Shown one piece after another: positions 4,337-11,657 of a DNA stretch of 11,657 nucleotides. Where the stretch lies: the IMG/VR virus record IMGVR_UViG_2537562189_000011, positions 1 through 11,657 of that record; one strand, given 5' to 3'. Below the pieces are notes generated by a model that worked only from the letters and a program-made list of their open reading frames with translations, had not been told where the DNA came from and ran no database searches. Position 1 is the stretch's first letter. Each line of letters starts with the position of its first letter. Source of the DNA: a virus (lineage: Duplodnaviria > Heunggongvirae > Uroviricota > Caudoviricetes). The position numbers and the translations under genes are program-made.

Positions 4337-5029
4337 TTAGCTGTCCTGGTAATTGCGCCATATTTCATCACCAGCACCATCTATACCCATTTCGGCATAA
4401 GTGCGATCGACTGCCTTTTTCAGGTCTCCGAAATTATCCGGCGGCTCCGGTGCCCTCTGTGCCTTCCTTGAACATTCCAGCCGTCGCATCGTGATGTGAT
4501 GCCGTTCCTTGTCTGTCTCCACCAGCTGCATGACTTCACCCCATCGCGCCGCCGCCCTCCGGTAAAAGCCTTTCGCCTCCAGTTCCTCCGCTATGCGGTC
4601 ATGTACCATCGTCACCCCCTCAGAACGAAATATCATCACCGTAAGGGTCATCGCTCCCGCTGGTGGCTGATTACCCTGTGTGCCTGTGGTTTTGCGTCTG
4701 TTCCCGCCAGGAAGTGCCGCACGGGCACTGATTACGCTGTCTGCAATAACCTGATAACCCTGCCGCGTTTCCCCATTCTGTCCGGTCCACTGGCTGACCT
4801 GCATCGTGCCGGATACGCTGGCAACGTCGCCTTTTTGATGTTTAGCCAGGAAGTCGGCCTGCTTACCAAATGCGATGACCGATAGCCATAACGTCGCCTG
4901 CCCATCCTGCGCCTGACTACATGGCAGCGATACCGCCATACGCGCCAGCGTCATCGGTGTACCCTTGCTGGTCTGTTTTACCTGCTGGTCGTCCACCAGC
5001 CGCCCGTAAGCCGCTATCTGTGCTGTCAT
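4337..5029 (-). CDS. Two-domain protein: N-terminal SSB-like OB fold, Gly/Pro/Gln linker, C-terminal PerC-like small-regulator domain
   Basis: 230-aa ORF, ATG at 5029 overlapping the upstream stop (ATGA). Residues 1-105 follow the SSB OB-fold pattern (GRL..D..V ... TLW.SVI.FGK.A.F..K..KGD ... WT...G..R). The C-terminal ~90 aa carries AEELEAKGFYRRAAARW, recalled from PerC-type regulators. An internal ATG at 4609 has a strong GAGGGGG Shine-Dalgarno 5 nt upstream. Confidence 0.55.
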   Translation of the reverse strand: MTAQIAAYGRLVDDQQVKQTSKGTPMTLARMAVSLPCSQAQDGQATLWLSVIAFGKQADFLAKHQKGDVASVSGTMQVSQWTGQNGETRQGYQVIADSVISARAALPGGNRRKTTGTQGNQPPAGAMTLTVMIFRSEGVTMVHDRIAEELEAKGFYRRAAARWGEVMQLVETDKERHHITMRRLECSRKAQRAPEPPDNFGDLKKAVDRTYAEMGIDGAGDEIWRNYQDS

Positions 5030-5277
5030 GCCGTCTGCTCTCCGGTTTTAACGTTGATGGTTGTTACCTGTTCCGCTTCGGCAATCTCCCGTTCTGTCAA
5101 CGTGGCAAAGTTTGCCGCTGCTGTGGTCATGAATGCGCTTATCAGTTCGGGATGCTCCTTCGCGTATCCTTCCCCCGCGTGGCGGTCTATCGTCCTGATT
5201 GCCACCTTTAAGGCCAGTTCAGCCATATCTAACGCCTTATATTTCGGCTCTGTTCTGTCTCTGCGTTTTTGGGTCAT
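5026..5277 (-). CDS. Hypothetical protein (about 83 aa), translationally coupled to the SSB-like gene
   Basis: The ORF track extends to a TTG at 5334 (102 aa), but that extension is encoded by the iteron repeats. ATG at 5277 (MTQKRRDRTEP...) has a GAGAGG Shine-Dalgarno; a further ATG lies at 5226. No recognised domain. Confidence 0.45.
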   Translation of the reverse strand: MTQKRRDRTEPKYKALDMAELALKVAIRTIDRHAGEGYAKEHPELISAFMTTAAANFATLTEREIAEAEQVTTINVKTGEQTA

Positions 5278-5288
5278 TTCTCGCAACC

Positions 5289-5479
5289 TCTCACTTTTTC
5301 GCCTCACTTTTTCAAGCGTCTCACTTCGTCGCAATTGGGATTTTTGGTTTTTCTATGTGTGTGTTTCATAAGTATTTTTTTACCCCTCACTTTTGAGGAT
5401 GTATACAGGTAGAAAAGTGAGGGAGAGCAGGCTAATTTTGGCCCTCTTTCTATCCACCTCGCTTTTGCTCCTCACTTTT
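5289..5479. repeat. Iteron cluster (CTCACTTTT) flanking an AT-rich segment; candidate replication origin
   Basis: Perfect copies at 5290-5298, 5304-5312, 5387-5395 and 5471-5479, one inverted copy (AAAAGTGAG, 5413-5421), and degenerate copies at 5320-5328 (CTCACTTCG) and 5459-5467 (CTCGCTTTT). AT-rich core at 5331-5384. Lies immediately 3' of the helicase gene. Confidence 0.6.
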
Positions 5480-6459
5480 ATAGCGGCGCTACATCATCCC
5501 CATCGATACGAATAACCCCATCTTTTTCCAGCTTGTACAGCCAGCGCCGGAAGTTTTTCATTTCATACCCCAGCTTTTTCATGTCATCACGTAACAGCGG
5601 GATCGTGCACTTGTCGCCGTTCTGTGTGCGTGAACGGATGCACCCCCATAGCGCGGTATGGTTTTCCGTCTTGTTCCCTGCCTCCTCGATGCGCTCCAGT
5701 TCAACGGGAGGGCGCGGCTTATCCACCACCACCAGCGACGTGATTAATTCACCGTCAGCGTCGGTAAAAAGCTCCACCACGCGTAAGTCATATGCGGCTT
5801 CTTTGAGTTCCTCCGCGTCCTTCATTTTGGTGCATGAGATAACCAGCGCTTCGCCTCCTGCGTCCTCCCTGCGTATCCGGTATTCAGCATCCAGCGAAGC
5901 ACGAAATGCACTGGAACCGCGCGCGCCTTTCGCTCATCCTTGCCGGAATGGTGAACCACCAGCACCGTGGCCCCTGTGCGTCGATTCAGTTCGTCACAAC
6001 CACGGATAAACGCCCCCATATCACGGGAATCATTTCATCATTCCCACCAAGGCAACGCGCCAGCGTATCCAGAATAATCATGCGTACAGGTTTACCCGTT
6101 TCCCGCTCCACCTGACGGGCAGCGATAACCATTTCATCAACATCAAGCGGGGCAGCCGGAAAGATGGGGCGGTTTACCAGATACAGATTTTTCACCTGCT
6201 CATCGTGCACAACCTCCCAGGCTTTTACACGACGCGGAACACCTATACCGCCTTCACCAACCACATAGAGAACCGCACCATGTGCAACCCTGCGGCCTCC
6301 CCACTGGCGACCAGTGGCAACATGGCACGCCCACGATCCGGCAAGGAATGATTTATAGGACCCGCTAGCCCCGTATATGCTGCATAGCGATACCGCCGGA
6401 ATAATCCCCTTAACCACGTAATCCAGTTGCGTGTCGTATCCGGTAGATCCAACGCTCAT
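5478..6459 (-). pseudogene. Replication helicase (AAA_25 / RepA-like) disrupted by two frameshifts
   Basis: Three consecutive minus-strand ORFs in three frames together form one helicase-like protein: Walker A GASGSYKS and Walker B MIILDTL (6459-5986), GATVLVVHHSGKD (6019-5822), C-terminal domain (5825-5478). Reading continuity needs about +1 nt near 6033-6035 and -2 nt in the CCGCGCGCGCC tract at 5917-5927, which restores ...HHSGKDERKARGSSAFRASLD.... Confidence 0.7.
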
Positions 6460-6875
6460 CGGTAGCGTGGTTTTTCGCTGGTGGTTTTTTCTTCCGCCGG
6501 CTCTTTCCCGCGCACCCGTTCCAGGTATTCGCGCCAGTTCTCCCGCATATGGCTGTGCATCCCTTCGGGGTAATAATTCGCATCAGTTACACCCGCCGCC
6601 GCCAGTTTGTGCGCAATGGCATTAATATTTGATGGCCTGATGTGGCCTGCCTTGTACAGCCGGACACAATAGCGCCCCTCGTCGATGATTCTCAGGTCTG
6701 CCAGTTCATCCAGTTGATCATCAGCCAGCACAACGGGAGGCACATTATCGCCAGCCAGTCGCCCGTCCTGTTCCTGCCACTGTTTCGCATGTGCCCAGGC
6801 ATCACTACCCGCAAAAATAATGACTTCGGTCATCTTGTCGTAAGGCTGTTTTTTTAAGTTCGGTGCGCTTTTCAT
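6456..6875 (-). CDS. Hypothetical protein (139 aa), coupled upstream partner of the helicase gene
   Basis: ATG at 6875 with AGGGG Shine-Dalgarno; ATGA overlaps with both the upstream gene and the helicase start. No confident domain assignment. Confidence 0.55.
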   Translation of the reverse strand: MKSAPNLKKQPYDKMTEVIIFAGSDAWAHAKQWQEQDGRLAGDNVPPVVLADDQLDELADLRIIDEGRYCVRLYKAGHIRPSNINAIAHKLAAAGVTDANYYPEGMHSHMRENWREYLERVRGKEPAEEKTTSEKPRYR

Positions 6876-7171
6876 TTCTTGCCCCTGAATCCGTTAATCA
6901 TGGTTTTCAGCTTCTGGATGTTTGCACGTGCCCTGGCGTTGCTGGTGGGCACGTTATGCGGCGCGGTCTGTACCAGAGAAAAATCACGCCGGAACTGATA
7001 AACAGGCATCACGCAATCATATTCGTAACCTTCACGGCGGTAAGTTACGCACCGTCCCGCCACGCCCTTAATCATTACCGTGCCGCCGTACTGGTCGCGG
7101 TAAATATCACCGCGCGTAAATTTAGGGTGAGTGTTGCCACTGGCAGTTAAGCCAGAATATTTAAGTTTCAT
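6872..7171 (-). CDS. Hypothetical protein (99 aa), first gene of the replication operon
   Basis: ATG at 7171 with a GGAGA upstream; ATGA overlap with the next gene; preceded by a 230-bp AT-rich intergenic region. No recognised domain. Confidence 0.5.
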   Translation of the reverse strand: MKLKYSGLTASGNTHPKFTRGDIYRDQYGGTVMIKGVAGRCVTYRREGYEYDCVMPVYQFRRDFSLVQTAPHNVPTSNARARANIQKLKTMINGFRGKK

Positions 7172-8262: not shown

Positions 8263-8351
8263 AACGGCTCCTCGTTTACGTTGTTGGTTAGAAGCCCTGC
8301 GAGTGGTAATGACACTTGCGGGGCTTTGCTTTTTTAAGTGCTCTTGTGTTA

Positions 8352-8397
8352 AGGTGGTCACCTAACAATAGAAAGGCTAATTCAATAGGTGACCACT
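8352..8397. promoter_or_regulatory. Operator-like inverted repeat pair (GGTGGTCACC / GGTGACCAC) in the divergent intergenic region
   Basis: GGTGGTCACC at 8353-8362 and its near reverse complement GGTGACCAC at 8388-8396, centres 35 bp apart, between the minus-strand gene starting at 8262 and the plus-strand gene starting at 8457. Confidence 0.45.
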
Positions 8398-8456
8398 TGT
8401 CAACAATCAAACGCGATAAAAGCCCTAAAGGGGACGGGCAATCCCCACAATTCAGA

Positions 8457-8588
8457 ATGCGAATTTCTCCAGAGCTAAAAGAGCAATTCGATAAAGAAGC
8501 ACAGAGCGACGGCATAAGCCTAGCCAACTGGCTTAAAGAGTTGGGGCGCACTGAACTAAAGCGGCGCGGTATAGAACCCAAAGGATAA
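8457..8588 (+). CDS. Ribbon-helix-helix (Arc/CopG-like) DNA-binding protein, copy 1 (43 aa)
   Basis: MRISPELKEQFDKEAQSDGISLANWLKELGRTELKRRG fits the strand-helix-helix pattern of ribbon-helix-helix regulators (Arc/CopG-like). Nested in the 90-aa ORF-track ORF 8316-8588; Shine-Dalgarno is weak. Confidence 0.45.
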   Translation: MRISPELKEQFDKEAQSDGISLANWLKELGRTELKRRGIEPKG

Positions 8589-8590
8589 AA

Positions 8591-8637
8591 ACTATCAGCG
8601 CCGTGGTGTGAGGTACTACGGCGCATTGCTTTACAGG
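8591..8637 (+). repeat. 47-bp conserved hairpin element, copy 1
   Basis: ACTATCAGCGCCGTGGTGTGAGGTACTACGGCGCATTGCTTTACAGG, 46 of 47 identical to 9332-9378. Contains a GCGCCGT / ACGGCGC stem (extendable to 11 bp with G-U pairs). Begins 2 nt after the stop codon and ends 8 nt before the next ATG. Confidence 0.7.
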
Positions 8638-8645
8638 GCAGTACC

Positions 8646-8873
8646 ATGACCAACAACACACTATCACCAATACAAGACACGCAAACGCAAGATGATGAAA
8701 TCATCCGGCAAAGGCAGTCAGAAGCCTGCGCCAGACTTGAGGAAGAACTAACCAGAACAAAAATACCACCACCAGCGCCGCGCTTAGTGCCACCAGAAAA
8801 ATTTGCCCTTGAAGATTTTGTCGATAAATACCCACGGCGGCTTAAATCCGGCAAAAACCGACCGCCAGGATGA
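8646..8873 (+). CDS. Hypothetical small protein (75 aa), MTNN... N-terminus
   Basis: ATG 8 nt after the 47-bp element. The first ~50 nt are homologous to the start of the ORF at 9387. No recognised domain. Confidence 0.4.
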   Translation: MTNNTLSPIQDTQTQDDEIIRQRQSEACARLEEELTRTKIPPPAPRLVPPEKFALEDFVDKYPRRLKSGKNRPPG

Positions 8874-8892
8874 GTGCACAAAACCGAACTAT

Positions 8893-8930
8893 GAAACGGA
8901 TTATTCCGTTTCCGGGGCGTTTGTGTGTGT
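8893..8930 (+). terminator. Candidate terminator hairpin after the first plus-strand gene pair
   Basis: GAAACGGA (8893-8900), loop TTAT, TCCGTTTC (8905-8912), followed by CGGGGCGTTTGTGTGTGT. The T-tract is interrupted, so this is weak. A second hairpin ACGCCCCG / CGGGGCGT (8993-9026) is followed by TTGTTGTTTTGGG. Confidence 0.3.
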
Positions 8931-9036
8931 ATAAAGAGTAAGCTATGCTCTTTTATAGCCATAATCGTTACCTCAATTAATGGTTTGGTTAGACGCCCCG
9001 TATGTGTTCCCATCACTGCGGGGCGTTGTTGTTTTG

Positions 9037-9129
9037 GGTGTATTTCACCTTCATTTTTAAATCTACATTCAGGTGAAATACACCGCAAGACTTTTTTTAT
9101 CTTTTTTTTTGCGTATACTGAAATACACC
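9037..9129 (+). promoter_or_regulatory. Promoter/operator region of the second ribbon-helix-helix gene: GGTG-N5-CACC inverted repeats plus a TATACT -10
   Basis: GGTGTATTTCACC at 9037-9049 and its reverse complement GGTGAAATACACC at 9072-9084 (centres 35 bp apart); a third half-site TGAAATACACC at 9119-9129 overlaps a TATACT at 9114-9119; T-rich stretch at 9091-9110; AGGAG Shine-Dalgarno at 9137-9141. Confidence 0.5.
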
Positions 9130-9149
9130 GATTATCAGGAGAACCAGAA

Positions 9150-9329
9150 ATGGCAACAGGTGCAAAGAACGCAAAATCACAAATGACAACGGTCAGAATC
9201 CCGCATGAGGTAATGACCGATATTGAGCAACTTAAAGAACCTGGCGAAAGTACCGCCGGATTTCTAGTTACGGCAGCAAAAGGCGAGATCAAACGCCGCC
9301 AGCGCCGCAAGGCCAAAGAATCAGAATAA
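9150..9329 (+). CDS. Ribbon-helix-helix (Arc/CopG-like) DNA-binding protein, copy 2 (59 aa)
   Basis: ATG at 9150 with CAGGAG Shine-Dalgarno at 8-nt spacing. TTVRIPHEVMTDIEQLKEPGESTAGFLVTAAKGEIKRR fits the ribbon-helix-helix pattern. Nested in the 134-aa ORF-track ORF 8925-9329. Confidence 0.55.
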   Translation: MATGAKNAKSQMTTVRIPHEVMTDIEQLKEPGESTAGFLVTAAKGEIKRRQRRKAKESE

Positions 9330-9331
9330 TT

Positions 9332-9378
9332 ACTATCAGCGCCGTGGCGTGAGGTACTACGGCGCATTGCTTTACAGG
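9332..9378 (+). repeat. 47-bp conserved hairpin element, copy 2
   Basis: ACTATCAGCGCCGTGGCGTGAGGTACTACGGCGCATTGCTTTACAGG; same placement as copy 1 (2 nt after the stop, 8 nt before the next ATG). Confidence 0.7.
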
Positions 9379-9386
9379 TACACACA

Positions 9387-9536
9387 ATGACCAATAAAGA
9401 ATCAACCAATACACCATCGCAAAAAACGAACAGAGAGCACGAAAATATGGCGCTCGAGCATGAATCAGAAAGATTCGCTCCATGCGCTTTTGTCCTTGAT
9501 GAGTTTCTAAAAAATATTCACGTTCTGAACGGATGA
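9387..9536 (+). CDS. Hypothetical small protein (49 aa), MTNK... N-terminus; not in the ORF track
   Basis: ATG at 9387 to TGA at 9534-9536, translated by hand: MTNKESTNTPSQKTNREHENMALEHESERFAPCAFVLDEFLKNIHVLNG. Position and first codons parallel the ORF at 8646. Confidence 0.3.
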   Translation: MTNKESTNTPSQKTNREHENMALEHESERFAPCAFVLDEFLKNIHVLNG

Positions 9537-9864: not shown

Positions 9865-10053
9865 TTAGTGAACTGCCTTGCAGCTATCCTTCCAGGCCAA
9901 AACCTCAGATAAAGACCAGCCAACAGAACGCCCGCCAAGTTTACGACGTGATGGGAATTGTCCGGCCTTTTCCAGGCGGTAGCGGCATGAGCGGCTAAGG
10001 CCTGTTAGCTTTTCGCATTCTTTTTCACGTATAAACCGATCAGTGCTTAACAC
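9865..10053 (-). CDS. alpA: AlpA-family phage regulatory protein (small HTH regulator)
   Basis: 62 aa; RFIREKECEKLTGLSRSCRYRLEKAGQFPSRRKLGGRSVGWSLSEVLAWK matches the AlpA helix-turn-helix signature. GTG start at 10053 with AAGGGGG Shine-Dalgarno 5 nt upstream. Confidence 0.85.
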   Translation of the reverse strand: MLSTDRFIREKECEKLTGLSRSCRYRLEKAGQFPSRRKLGGRSVGWSLSEVLAWKDSCKAVH

Positions 10054-10427: not shown

Positions 10428-11657
10428 TTATTTTATTCTGGTTACTGGTAGCGTGGTTACGTTTTCATGTGTTCCCGCCAGTATCTCCAACCGCTCCACC
10501 CACATATCAAGCGCATTGCGTTTCGCATCAATATAGCGGGAATGGTTGTACACGCGTTGCATTCCTAGCATCTGGTGGCCTGTAAGCTGCTCCACGACGT
10601 GAGGATCAACGCCTAAATCGTTCAGCATGGTTGTAAAGGTGCGCCGGATGTCATGCAGTGACCAGTGAGGGTGTTTAAGCCTCCTGTGCACCAATCTGCC
10701 GTACTGCGATACGCTGGTTTCCTGTTTCACTTCCCCCAGCAATAAGCCCGTGTGCCTGTTCTGCTCCACCAGCTGCGTGACGAACGGCAGTATCGCTTCC
10801 GGTATGGGCCGGAATATGGCTACCTTCGTTTTGCTGTGCTCCTTCGGAACGGTCCAGAGCATTTCGGTAAAATCCCACTCGCCGATCTCCGATAACCTCA
10901 GTTCTACTGTCCGGCATCCGAAAACAATCAGGAGGCGGATTAGTGCGACGTAGTAAGGGGAAAATATTTTTTTGTCCAGTGCCTGCAATAATTCGCCAAG
11001 TTCTTTGTTACTTAAGACACGCTCACTTATATCCGGTTTTTTCCCAACGTCCGCCACACTCATATCATCAAGAACGTTGCTGATTGCATAGCGCCGCTTC
11101 CTGCAGAACTTAAGCGCCTGCTTGCATGTCTGTAGCAGGAACCCGGCGGAAACAGGGGCTTTCTTTGCCACCCGATCAAAACAGGCCAGCCAGTGCCGTA
11201 GCTCGCATTTATCCAGCGGCATAGGGCCAATGTGCTGTATTACGTGATTATTTAGCCGCTTTTTCAGTGGGTCATAATCCACACGGTTTTCCTTTGCGTA
11301 CGACTCAAGCCAGTAGGTGAGCGCATCGCCAACCGTTACCGGCTTTAACGCTTCCTGTACGGTGTAATTCATTTCATGACGTGGATTTTTCCCCTCTGCC
11401 AGCCATGCGCGACACTGGGCGGCTTTTTCCCTGGCTGATTTCAGGCTCAGATCAGGATAATTTCCCAGCTTAATGCGTTCCGGTGGTGCCCCCCTTCCCG
11501 TTCCGGCCCTGTAAGTGAAATACCAGGTTAAAAGGCCACTGGTTGAATGCCTGACGCTCAGGTTTCCACCGTCATTAAGAAAGGCTGTTTTTTGGGCGGG
11601 TGTGCCGTTGATTTTCCTCAGCTGGGTATCGCTCAGTTTGTTAAGTGCTCTGCTCAT
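10428..11657 (-). CDS. int: Tyrosine integrase, P4-type (site-specific recombinase)
   Basis: 409-aa ORF, ATG exactly at the window end (11657-11655), TAA at 10430-10428. N-terminal arm-binding-like domain (GLLTWYFTYRAGTGRG..RIKLGNYPDLSLKSAREKA) and a C-terminal catalytic domain with HxxR and a terminal Tyr region as expected for tyrosine recombinases. Confidence 0.9.
   Translation of the reverse strand: MSRALNKLSDTQLRKINGTPAQKTAFLNDGGNLSVRHSTSGLLTWYFTYRAGTGRGAPPERIKLGNYPDLSLKSAREKAAQCRAWLAEGKNPRHEMNYTVQEALKPVTVGDALTYWLESYAKENRVDYDPLKKRLNNHVIQHIGPMPLDKCELRHWLACFDRVAKKAPVSAGFLLQTCKQALKFCRKRRYAISNVLDDMSVADVGKKPDISERVLSNKELGELLQALDKKIFSPYYVALIRLLIVFGCRTVELRLSEIGEWDFTEMLWTVPKEHSKTKVAIFRPIPEAILPFVTQLVEQNRHTGLLLGEVKQETSVSQYGRLVHRRLKHPHWSLHDIRRTFTTMLNDLGVDPHVVEQLTGHQMLGMQRVYNHSRYIDAKRNALDMWVERLEILAGTHENVTTLPVTRIK

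What the first reader, a model, noticed from the sequence alone, without database searches (positions are those of the whole stretch)
5289..5479. Iteron cluster with AT-rich core immediately downstream of the helicase gene: candidate satellite origin of replication
Five perfect and two degenerate copies of the 9-mer CTCACTTTT (one inverted) occur within 190 bp, flanking a ~55-bp AT-rich stretch. A specific 9-mer is expected far less than once in 190 bp by chance, so five copies is highly non-random. The arrangement matches the iteron-type origins placed just 3' of the initiator gene in PICI-type satellites. The repeats also overlap the 5' region of the next gene, so they could double as an operator.
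Basis: partly seen in the sequence, partly recalled or inferred. Interest (0 to 1): 0.65.

Follow-up and report, generated by a model that had tools for sequence, protein, structure and literature searches.

The report
Iteron replication origin of phage satellite
The repeat cluster is real and is almost certainly the replication origin of a capsid-encoding phage satellite (a PICI), where the helicase encoded just upstream binds; origins of this kind are already described, so it is a correct but largely ordinary call.

Summary
Observation confirmed. There are five perfect copies of CTCACTTTT (one inverted) and two degenerate copies in 5290-5479, with none elsewhere in the window. They flank a 51-bp stretch that is 71% AT. 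All genes here run on the minus strand. The cluster fills the 200-bp gap between the stop codon of a RepA-family (AAA_25) helicase and an 83-aa gene, inside an element with int, alpA, ssb, perC and an HK97 capsid module (cf-PICI type).

Interpretation supported. In 66 of 75 helicase homologue loci across Enterobacterales, the same slot scores at least four copies of one 7-mer. In most of these the site layout is the same. The repeat sequence differs between lineages (GTGAGG, GTGGGG(G)A, GTGCGGC) and all copies in a locus change together. The variable base tracks one residue (N, H/K, S/G) just before the recognition helix of the helicase's predicted C-terminal winged-helix domain. This also holds in natural chimeras. 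One Salmonella locus has mixed repeats.

PICI origins of this design are published (Fillol-Salom 2018). A listed PICI carries the same helicase and the same origin sequence as a close relative of the window. Here the helicase has three frameshifts, so the origin probably needs Rep supplied in trans. Nothing was tested experimentally. Novelty: new member of a known kind.

The parts
5478..6875 (-). RepA-family (AAA_25, SF4-like) initiator-helicase gene. Here it is a pseudogene, split into four ORFs by three 1-nt deletions near 5933, 6033 and 6485.
   Evidence: Pfam AAA_25 at E 1e-27. Alignment to the intact 466-aa gene of E. coli O103:H2 12009 shows three single-base deletions. The nearest solved structure by sequence is RSF1010 RepA 1G8Y.
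5481..5666 (-). Coding region for the C-terminal winged-helix domain, the predicted iteron reader. The recognition helix FRRWLYKLEK is at 5523-5552 and the specificity residue Asn is at 5553-5555.
   Evidence: The AF2 model has pLDDT about 90 for residues 60-115 with H-H-H-wing topology. The best Foldseek matches, none significant by E-value (best 0.046, probabilities 0.97-0.99), are winged-helix DNA binders (IclR, Fur, DtxR, H1, ORC). The residue co-varies with the iteron base.
5471..5479 (-). Iteron 1, AAAAGTGAG (perfect). It overlaps the helicase stop codon.
5458..5466 (-). Iteron 2, AAAAGCGAG (1 mismatch), 13 bp after iteron 1.
5413..5421 (+). Iteron 3, the only inverted copy. It forms a convergent pair with iteron 4.
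   Evidence: (I3)
5395..5412 (.). 18-bp spacer of the convergent iteron pair, with the central palindrome TGTATACA (5400-5407). Spacer length and a (T)ATATA(C) centre are conserved across genera.
   Evidence: spacing is fixed at 20 nt between the regex cores in 60 of 77 sequences examined, 63 of which (excluding the window and L001) have a convergent pair, and nearly all of these have a TATATA-like centre; an 11-bp hairpin is possible as ssDNA (z = -3.2).
5386..5394 (-). Iteron 4, AAAAGTGAG (perfect).
5335..5385 (-). AT-rich, A-tract-rich core, the presumed DNA-unwinding region.
   Evidence: 71% AT, with 29 A of 51 on the minus strand. Mean AT over 77 homologous sequences (75 loci plus L001 and the window) peaks at 0.69-0.73 at the same offset, 100-140 nt after the stop codon.
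5320..5328 (-). Iteron 5, CGAAGTGAG (2 mismatches).
5303..5311 (-). Iteron 6, AAAAGTGAG (perfect).
5290..5298 (-). Iteron 7, AAAAGTGAG (perfect), 13 bp after iteron 6. It ends 12 nt before the ATG of the next gene.
5026..5277 (-). 83-aa gene of unknown function (phrog_1231) downstream of the origin.
   Evidence: Annotated start in homologues. 70% identical to the gene in the same slot of EcCICFT073, which has unrelated iterons.
4337..5029 (-). SSB fused to PerC by a 1-nt deletion near 4654. The element's own single-strand binding protein probably serves the origin.
   Evidence: Pfam SSB plus PerC in one ORF. The two genes are separate in L001. The deletion was mapped.

Best explanation
Region 5278-5477 is the replication origin of a capsid-forming PICI-type phage satellite. 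The helicase encoded immediately upstream has a Toprim-like N-terminal domain, an SF4/RepA-type ATPase and a C-terminal winged helix. It is inferred to be both initiator and replicative helicase.

Inferred mechanism. The winged-helix domain reads the ~10-bp iteron AAAAGTGAGG. An Asn at the N-cap of the recognition helix pairs with the A in GTG-A-GG. Seven sites are arranged, in gene orientation, as two tandem copies, a convergent pair around TGTATACA, the 51-bp A-rich core, and then three more tandem copies. Occupying these sites would melt the AT-rich core and let the helicase load itself. The element's SSB and the host replisome would complete replication after helper-phage induction.

What is shown: the repeats, their position, their conservation, the co-variation with the helix residue, and the domain folds as predicted models. 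What is inferred: binding, melting, self-loading and replication.

In this copy the helicase gene carries three frameshifts. The origin would therefore fire only with Rep of the same specificity supplied in trans, unless the frameshifts are sequencing errors.
For: (1) The cluster is non-random and unique in the window.

(2) It begins at the stop codon of an AAA_25 helicase, inside an element with int, alpA, ssb, perC and HK97 capsid, protease, portal and HNH genes. An intact E. coli relative continues into terS and terL.

(3) In 75 loci with helicase homologues from Xenorhabdus, Pectobacterium, Serratia, Morganella, Pantoea, Erwinia, Kosakonia, Enterobacter and others, the 210 bp after the stop codon holds 4-10 copies of one 7-mer in 66 loci. 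Only 28 of 6,688 background windows reach 4 copies, and in 61 loci no background window equals the origin window. In most loci the site offsets are the same (about 0, 12, 57 inverted, 87, then 143-185), and the AT peak lies at 100-140.

(4) The iteron sequence differs between lineages, but all copies within a locus change together. The variable base follows the residue before the recognition helix (K-x-[FML]-x-[RK]-W): N with A, H or K with G, S or G with C.

(5) This rule was used as a prediction and then checked on E. coli alleles fetched afterwards. KHF and KHL alleles have GTGGG iterons; KNM and KNF alleles have GTGAG. The rule held in chimeras that share the N-terminal or ATPase domains but differ in the C-terminal domain: P0038 versus P0091, and P0059 versus P0091.

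(6) The AF2 model places that residue at the N-cap of helix 3 of a winged-helix fold.

(7) EcCICFT073 has a different initiator in the same slot and unrelated iterons (GGTAGACAG), although the downstream gene is 70% identical. That rep-ori was shown to drive plasmid replication (PMC6092414).

(8) SaPI Reps use a C-terminal winged-helix domain to bind iterons located just 3' of rep around an AT-rich centre (PMC9371898).

(9) A 16,971-bp circular Klebsiella record (CP018459.1) is a cf-PICI-like element with the same origin layout.
Against: There is no experimental evidence for binding or replication for this helicase type. The published functional test used a different initiator.

The helicase here is frameshifted, so this copy may be non-functional.

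One Salmonella locus (L093) has an Asn-type helix but mixed GTGAGG/GTGGGG/GTGGGT repeats. The single residue therefore cannot be the sole determinant, or that origin is a recent recombinant.

The number of independent specificity switches is small (roughly 4-6). Gene and origin are physically linked, so part of the co-variation is co-inheritance.

Unlike SaPI origins as described, the repeat sets on the two sides of the AT-rich core point the same way.

Nine of the 75 loci have few repeats or a truncated origin.
Confidence: 0.85

Rival explanations
1. The repeats are operator sites of a transcription regulator controlling the downstream operon (83-aa gene, ssb, perC, capsid module). This could be instead of origin function or in addition to it.
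For: The last repeat ends 12 nt before the ATG at 5277. Repeated short sites upstream of a gene are typical operators. A helicase with a winged-helix domain could also act as a roadblock or autoregulator.
Against: The simple scan found no sigma-70-like promoter on either strand in 5000-5800. EcCICFT073 has a 70% identical downstream gene but completely different repeats that go with its different initiator. Locus L085 keeps the repeat layout while a different gene follows. The first repeats overlap the helicase stop codon about 200 bp upstream of the next gene. The repeat sequence co-varies with the helicase C-terminal domain.
Confidence: 0.07
2. The region is a packaging signal (cos or pac site) recognised by the satellite's small terminase and HNH proteins.
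For: cf-PICIs package their own DNA and need a specific site. Repeats with A-tracts resemble some cosB or pac regions.
Against: The same repeats and layout occur in PICIs with a different, lambda-like capsid and terS module (L001, EcCIRM12579) and in loci with other gene contexts. The repeats therefore track the helicase and not the packaging module. In relatives, terS and terL lie about 5 kb away beyond HNH.
Confidence: 0.02
3. The inverted pair (5384-5423) is an RNA or DNA hairpin acting as a terminator or attenuator between the helicase gene and the next gene. The direct copies would be incidental.
For: An 11-bp perfect inverted repeat exists (I3). The ssDNA fold gives -9.1 kcal/mol, z = -3.2. 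Both arms change together between lineages, which mimics compensatory change.
Against: No U-run follows the stem on the coding strand, and the scan found no terminator on the minus strand. There is no Rfam match. The five direct copies change in the same way as the arms, which a hairpin does not explain.
Confidence: 0.02
4. It is a chance or low-complexity repeat with no function.
For: The region is T-rich on the + strand, and short T-rich words recur more easily there.
Against: None of 200 shuffles reached five copies. Layout is conserved across genera and across sequence classes.
Confidence: 0.01

Closest known systems
Gram-negative PICI origins (Fillol-Salom et al. 2018, ISME J, PMC6092414); tested example EcCICFT073 pri-rep-ori
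   Same: Same element type and same slot: DUF4222 gene, initiator, origin, about 85-aa gene, ssb, perC. Iteron sets flank an AT-rich region immediately 3' of the initiator gene. EcCIRM12579, listed in that paper's Table S1, carries a helicase (WP_000833618.1) identical to that of L001, the close relative of the window, and the same origin sequence as L001.
   Different: The experimentally tested EcCICFT073 initiator is a 584-aa primase-family protein. It shares only the N-terminal ~125 aa with this helicase (62% identity), and its iterons are unrelated (GGTAGACAG / GGTAGATA). I could not see that paper's Fig. 2a, so I cannot say whether this exact iteron set is drawn there.
SaPI Rep/ori of Staphylococcus aureus (Ubeda et al. 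2007, from memory; Qiao et al. 2022, PMC9371898)
   Same: A self-contained initiator-helicase with a C-terminal winged-helix domain that reads short iterons. There are 6-12 iterons directly after the rep ORF and an AT-rich centre. Rep and origin form specificity pairs that differ between islands.
   Different: SaPI Reps are SF3 or SF6 (MCM-like) AAA+ helicases that move 3'-5'. This one has a RecA-fold AAA_25 / RSF1010-RepA-like (SF4) core, and that family is known to move 5'-3'. SaPI iterons on the two sides of the AT-rich region are described as pointing in opposite directions. Here both flanking sets are co-directional, and the only inversion is a convergent pair inside the rep-proximal set. 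The iterons here are about 10 bp rather than 5-6.
Phage T7 gp4 / mitochondrial Twinkle primase-helicases
   Different: No zinc-binding or full RNA-polymerase subdomain was detected, so primase activity is unproven. gp4 and Twinkle lack a C-terminal origin-binding winged helix and do not recognise iterons.
Satellite phage P4 alpha protein with ori/crr (from memory)
   Same: One satellite-encoded protein combines priming or helicase functions with a C-terminal origin-binding domain that reads short repeats.
   Different: P4 alpha is a primase plus an SF3 helicase. Its repeats (type I, TGTTCACC) sit in ori and in a separate crr site, not in one block after the gene.
IncQ plasmid RSF1010 RepA helicase and oriV
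   Same: Nearest solved helicase by sequence (1G8Y, E = 0.006).
   Different: RSF1010 RepA is only a helicase. Its iterons (20-mers) are bound by a separate protein, RepC. There is no winged-helix or Toprim-like domain on the helicase.
Classical plasmid iteron origins (pPS10, F, R6K, RK2; from memory)
   Same: Repeated initiator sites lie next to an AT-rich unwinding region.
   Different: Those iterons are 17-22 bp. They are bound by WH1-WH2 Rep proteins that are not helicases, and they depend on DnaA boxes and DnaB/DnaC. No conserved DnaA box was found here: the nearest match, CTATCCACC at 5449-5457, varies in L001.

Membership tests
PICI replication origin (as defined in PMC6092414 and PMC9371898) | Lies immediately 3' of the replication-initiator (rep / pri-rep) gene | tested here: met
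   The first iteron overlaps the helicase stop codon. This holds in 66 of 75 homologous loci.
PICI replication origin (as defined in PMC6092414 and PMC9371898) | [quoted passage not shown] | tested here: met
   Four sites at 5386-5479 and three sites at 5290-5328 flank 5335-5385, which is 71% AT.
PICI replication origin (as defined in PMC6092414 and PMC9371898) | [quoted passage not shown] | tested here: not met
   Six of the seven sites share one orientation. The single inverted site (5413-5421) lies within the rep-proximal set. This is a difference from the SaPI description. Whether it is required of Gram-negative PICI origins is not stated in the text I could read.
PICI replication origin (as defined in PMC6092414 and PMC9371898) | Initiator is a helicase with a C-terminal winged-helix domain matched to the iterons | tested here: met
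   AF2 winged-helix model. The recognition-helix residue co-varies with the iteron base across loci and chimeras. This is a prediction, not a binding assay.
PICI replication origin (as defined in PMC6092414 and PMC9371898) | Rep-dependent autonomous replication of a rep-ori fragment | not testable with these tools
   Needs the plasmid-maintenance assay used for EcCICFT073. The circular 17-kb Klebsiella record CP018459.1 is only circumstantial.
PICI / cf-PICI element (host of the origin) | int, alpA and rep transcribed in one direction; no tail or lysis genes; own capsid, protease, portal, HNH and terminase module for cf-PICIs | tested here: met
   int, AlpA, AAA_25, SSB, PerC, capsid, S78 protease, portal, head completion, connector and HNH are all on the minus strand. 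terS and terL lie beyond the window in the relative L096. The window ends inside the element, so absence of tail genes is shown only for relatives.
Classical plasmid iteron origin (WH1-WH2 Rep type) | 17-22-bp iterons bound by a non-helicase Rep, with conserved DnaA box(es) | tested here: not met
   The repeat unit is about 10 bp. The adjacent initiator is a helicase. No conserved DnaA box was found.
IncQ (RSF1010) replicon | Separate RepC iteron-binding initiator, RepB primase and ssi sites; RepA is a bare helicase | tested here: not met
   The helicase carries extra N-terminal Toprim-like and C-terminal winged-helix domains. No RepC or RepB homologue is seen among the window ORFs.

The most novel reading that the evidence does not exclude
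This may be a distinct class of self-loading SF4 initiator-helicase, with a Toprim-like domain, a RepA-type ATPase and a winged helix. It is widespread in Enterobacterales satellites. Its origin specificity would be set largely by one residue at the N-cap of the recognition helix: Asn reads A, His or Lys reads G, Ser or Gly reads C at position 5 of AAGTG-N-GG. Simple residue swaps would then create separate origin-specificity (compatibility) groups among co-resident satellites. The strictly spaced convergent iteron pair around a conserved TATATA centre, rather than the larger AT-rich block, may be where two hexamers assemble head-to-head.
Probability: 0.35. Interest if true: 0.5.

Novelty: new member of a known kind. 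Interest (0 to 1): 0.3.

Why it matters
It locates the origin of a satellite family present in roughly 7-9% of complete E. coli genomes (383-491 of 5,426). No genome record listed in that search annotates the region.

It shows that the published PICI origin design also holds for a RepA/SF4-type helicase, across at least about twenty Enterobacterales genera.

It gives a concrete, testable pairing between one protein residue and one iteron base. That pairing could be used to predict which satellites can cross-activate or compete for each other's origins, and to design orthogonal rep-ori pairs.

For this particular window, it flags that the origin is intact while the initiator gene is broken.

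Tried and rejected
- **Promoter and terminator scan of 5000-5800:** no promoter, and only one weak plus-strand terminator-like site at chance level. This gave no support for an operator or terminator reading.
- **Rfam at permissive threshold:** nothing found.
- **DnaA box:** the nearest match, CTATCCACC at 5449-5457, is not conserved even in the 97.5%-identical relative. Rejected.
- **Pfam on the helicase N- and C-terminal fragments:** no hits.
- **PDB sequence search with the whole helicase:** only RSF1010 RepA, and weakly.
- **Phage collection:** no full-length homologue in bona fide phages, only ATPase-core matches at 41% identity or less. The 53% hit H39 is a Salmonella genome contig, not a phage.
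- **Global MAFFT alignment of all origins:** too divergent to give a clean footprint. I relied on offset tables instead.
- **N-terminal domain as the iteron reader:** considered and rejected. It is shared at 62% identity with the CFT073 initiator, whose iterons are unrelated, and identical N-termini occur with both A-type and G-type iterons.
- **ED1a record:** not present in the collection.
- **Fig. 2a of PMC6092414:** could not be read. Whether this exact iteron set was already drawn there remains open.

Full report
**1. What is in the sequence**

The window carries perfect CTCACTTTT at 5290, 5303, 5386 and 5471 on the + strand and at 5413 on the - strand. There is a one-mismatch copy at 5458 and a two-mismatch copy at 5320. 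No other perfect copy exists in the 11.6 kb. In 200 dinucleotide-preserving shuffles, no 9-mer reached more than three non-overlapping copies in any 200-bp span. The stretch 5335-5385 between the two repeat groups is 71% AT, against 49% for the window, and has 29 A of 51 on the minus strand.

**2. Context**

All credible genes lie on the minus strand. In order they are:
- tyrosine integrase (10428-11657)
- AlpA (9865-10053)
- several small genes
- DUF4222 (6872-7171)
- an AAA_25 / RepA-family helicase (5478-6875)
- the 200-bp repeat region (5278-5477)
- an 83-aa gene (5026-5277)
- SSB and PerC (4337-5029)
- HK97-type capsid, S78 protease, portal, head-completion protein, connector and HNH

A 95.5%-identical E. 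coli element continues into terS and terL and sits at the tqsA attachment site. This is the gene content of a capsid-forming PICI (bioRxiv 10.1101/2022.09.08.507074).

Read in gene orientation, the repeat is AAAAGTGAG(G). Copy 1 overlaps the helicase stop codon. Copy 7 ends 12 nt before the ATG that homologues use for the next gene. The repeats therefore do not overlap that coding sequence.

Compared with the intact 466-aa gene of E. coli O103:H2 12009, the window's helicase has three 1-nt deletions. A fourth deletion fuses ssb to perC. The structural genes are intact.

**3.

I collected helicase homologues and 80 loci from one-genome-per-species contigs, and later added E. coli, Salmonella, Enterobacter and Klebsiella alleles.

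- In 66 of 75 usable loci, the 210 bp after the stop codon holds 4-10 copies of a single 7-mer.
- Only 28 of 6,688 background windows from the same loci reach 4 copies. In 61 loci no background window equals the origin window.
- In most of these loci the site offsets are nearly constant: about 0 and 12 (direct), 57 (inverted), 87 (direct), then 143-185 (two to four direct copies).
- Mean AT content peaks at 0.69-0.73 at offsets 100-140.
- The inverted and direct sites at about 57 and 87 form a convergent pair with a fixed spacer and a conserved (T)ATATA(C) centre in almost every genus. In the window this centre is TGTATACA at 5400-5407.

**4. Co-variation with the helicase**

The repeat sequence is not conserved between lineages:
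- AAGTGAGG in the window type, in Xenorhabdus and in Rosenbergiella
- AAGTGGGGGA in Pectobacterium, Serratia, Morganella and Erwinia
- AAGTGGGGA or GTGGGGGC in Pantoea and Kluyvera
- AAGTGCGGC in Kosakonia, Enterobacter, Phytobacter and Klebsiella

Within a locus all copies carry the same variant. The variable base follows the residue just before a conserved [FML]-x-[RK]-W-L-x-K-L helix near the C-terminus: Asn with A, His or Lys with G, Ser or Gly with C.

I treated this as a prediction and then fetched E. coli alleles:
- KHF (P0007, P0091) and KHL (P0111) alleles have GTGGG repeats.
- KNM (P0038) and KNF (P0059) alleles have GTGAG repeats.

These alleles are natural chimeras. P0038 and P0091 share the N-terminal domain. 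P0059 and P0091 share the ATPase domain. Yet the repeats follow the C-terminal domain.

One exception was found. A Salmonella allele with KNF but a different helix 1 has mixed GTGAGG/GTGGGG/GTGGGT repeats.

An AF2 model of the last 115 residues gives a winged-helix fold with pLDDT about 90. The co-varying residue sits at the N-cap of helix 3. The best structural matches, none significant by E-value, are winged-helix DNA binders.

**5. Natural swap control**

EcCICFT073 is the experimentally studied E. coli PICI. In the same slot it has a 584-aa primase-family initiator that shares only the first ~125 residues with this helicase. Its intergenic repeats are GGTAGACAG-type. The downstream 83-85-aa gene is nevertheless 70% identical. 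Conversely, locus L085 keeps the GTGGGG layout but is followed by a different gene. The repeats therefore belong to the initiator and not to the next gene or the packaging module. The same origin also occurs in PICIs with a lambda-like capsid and terS module.

**6. Mechanism**

The best-supported reading is a Rep-binding iteron origin. The helicase-initiator binds the seven sites through its winged-helix domain, melts the adjacent A-rich core and loads itself. The element's SSB and the host replisome then complete replication.

This is inferred by analogy with two published systems:
- SaPI Reps use a C-terminal winged-helix domain to bind iterons directly after rep around an AT-rich centre, and bind and melt without ATP (PMC9371898).
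- The EcCICFT073 rep-ori drives plasmid replication (PMC6092414).

Binding, melting and replication were not tested here.

**7. Rivals**

- Operator for the next gene: no promoter was found, and the swap controls argue against it. A secondary regulatory role cannot be excluded.
- Packaging site: the repeats track the helicase across different packaging modules.
- Hairpin or terminator: a stable 11-bp stem is possible, but no U-run follows it and there is no Rfam match. The direct copies also change along with the stem arms.
- Chance: excluded.

**8. Known or new**

Origins of this design are described for Gram-negative PICIs. The paper's Table S1 lists EcCIRM12579, which has a helicase protein identical to that of L001 (the close relative of the window) and the same origin sequence as L001. 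I could not view that paper's Fig. 2a.

The origin variant occurs in 383-491 of 5,426 complete E. coli genomes, and no record listed in that search annotates it.

I rate this as a new member of a known kind. The points that may be new are the SF4/Toprim-like architecture of the initiator, the residue-to-base correspondence, and the conserved convergent pair with its TATATA centre.

**9. Verdict**

The finding is correct and well called, but unsurprising to a specialist. Interest is 0.3. Confidence that the region is a Rep-binding origin is 0.85. In this copy the origin is probably orphaned by the frameshifted helicase.

Noticed in passing
window 4654, 5933, 6033, 6485: Four single-base deletions relative to the 97.5%-identical E. 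coli O103:H2 element. Three break the helicase into four ORFs and one fuses SSB to PerC. Integrase, capsid, protease and portal ORFs are intact. This is either real decay of the replication module or homopolymer-type sequencing errors.
   Followed up: partly
[not shown]
   Followed up: partly
window 5395-5412; loci L002-L079 at offsets about 60-85 after the helicase stop: The spacer of the convergent iteron pair has a fixed length and a conserved (T)ATATA(C) centre from E. coli to Xenorhabdus, Pectobacterium and Gilliamella. This suggests a functional element of its own, such as a nucleation or melting point or a host-factor site.
   Followed up: partly
L093 (Salmonella, Logan SRR3081675 contig), 2599-2880: The origin has mixed iteron types (GTGAGG, GTGGGG, GTGGGT) next to a helicase with an Asn-type recognition helix but a helix 1 of the His-type clade. 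It may be a recombinant or a transitional origin.
   Followed up: no
L092 = CP018459.1 (K. pneumoniae 'plasmid' pKp_Goe_795-4, 16,971 bp circular): This record, deposited as a plasmid, has cf-PICI gene content (integrase, RepA-type helicase, capsid, adaptor, terminase) and the same origin layout with (A/G)TGCGGC iterons. It is probably an excised satellite assembled as a circle.
   Followed up: partly
window 8288-9409: The mechanical 373-aa minus-strand ORF is not a gene. The region holds two plus-strand YlcI/YnfO-like small genes (8316-8588 and 8925-9329) within a partly duplicated segment, as in the relative L096 (10267-11448).
   Followed up: partly
L007, L015, L025, L079 (Xenorhabdus) and L022, L075: A Xenorhabdus subgroup has degenerate iterons (AAAATGAGG, AAAGCGAG, ACGAGGAG) in the usual layout. 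Two loci have origins truncated after the first two repeats, and one of these also has a deletion in the helicase winged-helix domain. These are apparently decaying copies.
   Followed up: no
L006, L011, L079 (one Xenorhabdus bakwenae chromosome); L034, L046 (one Pantoea dispersa genome): Several satellites with this rep-ori module co-reside in one genome, sometimes with the same iteron class and sometimes with different ones. This bears on trans-activation of orphan origins such as the one in this window.
   Followed up: no
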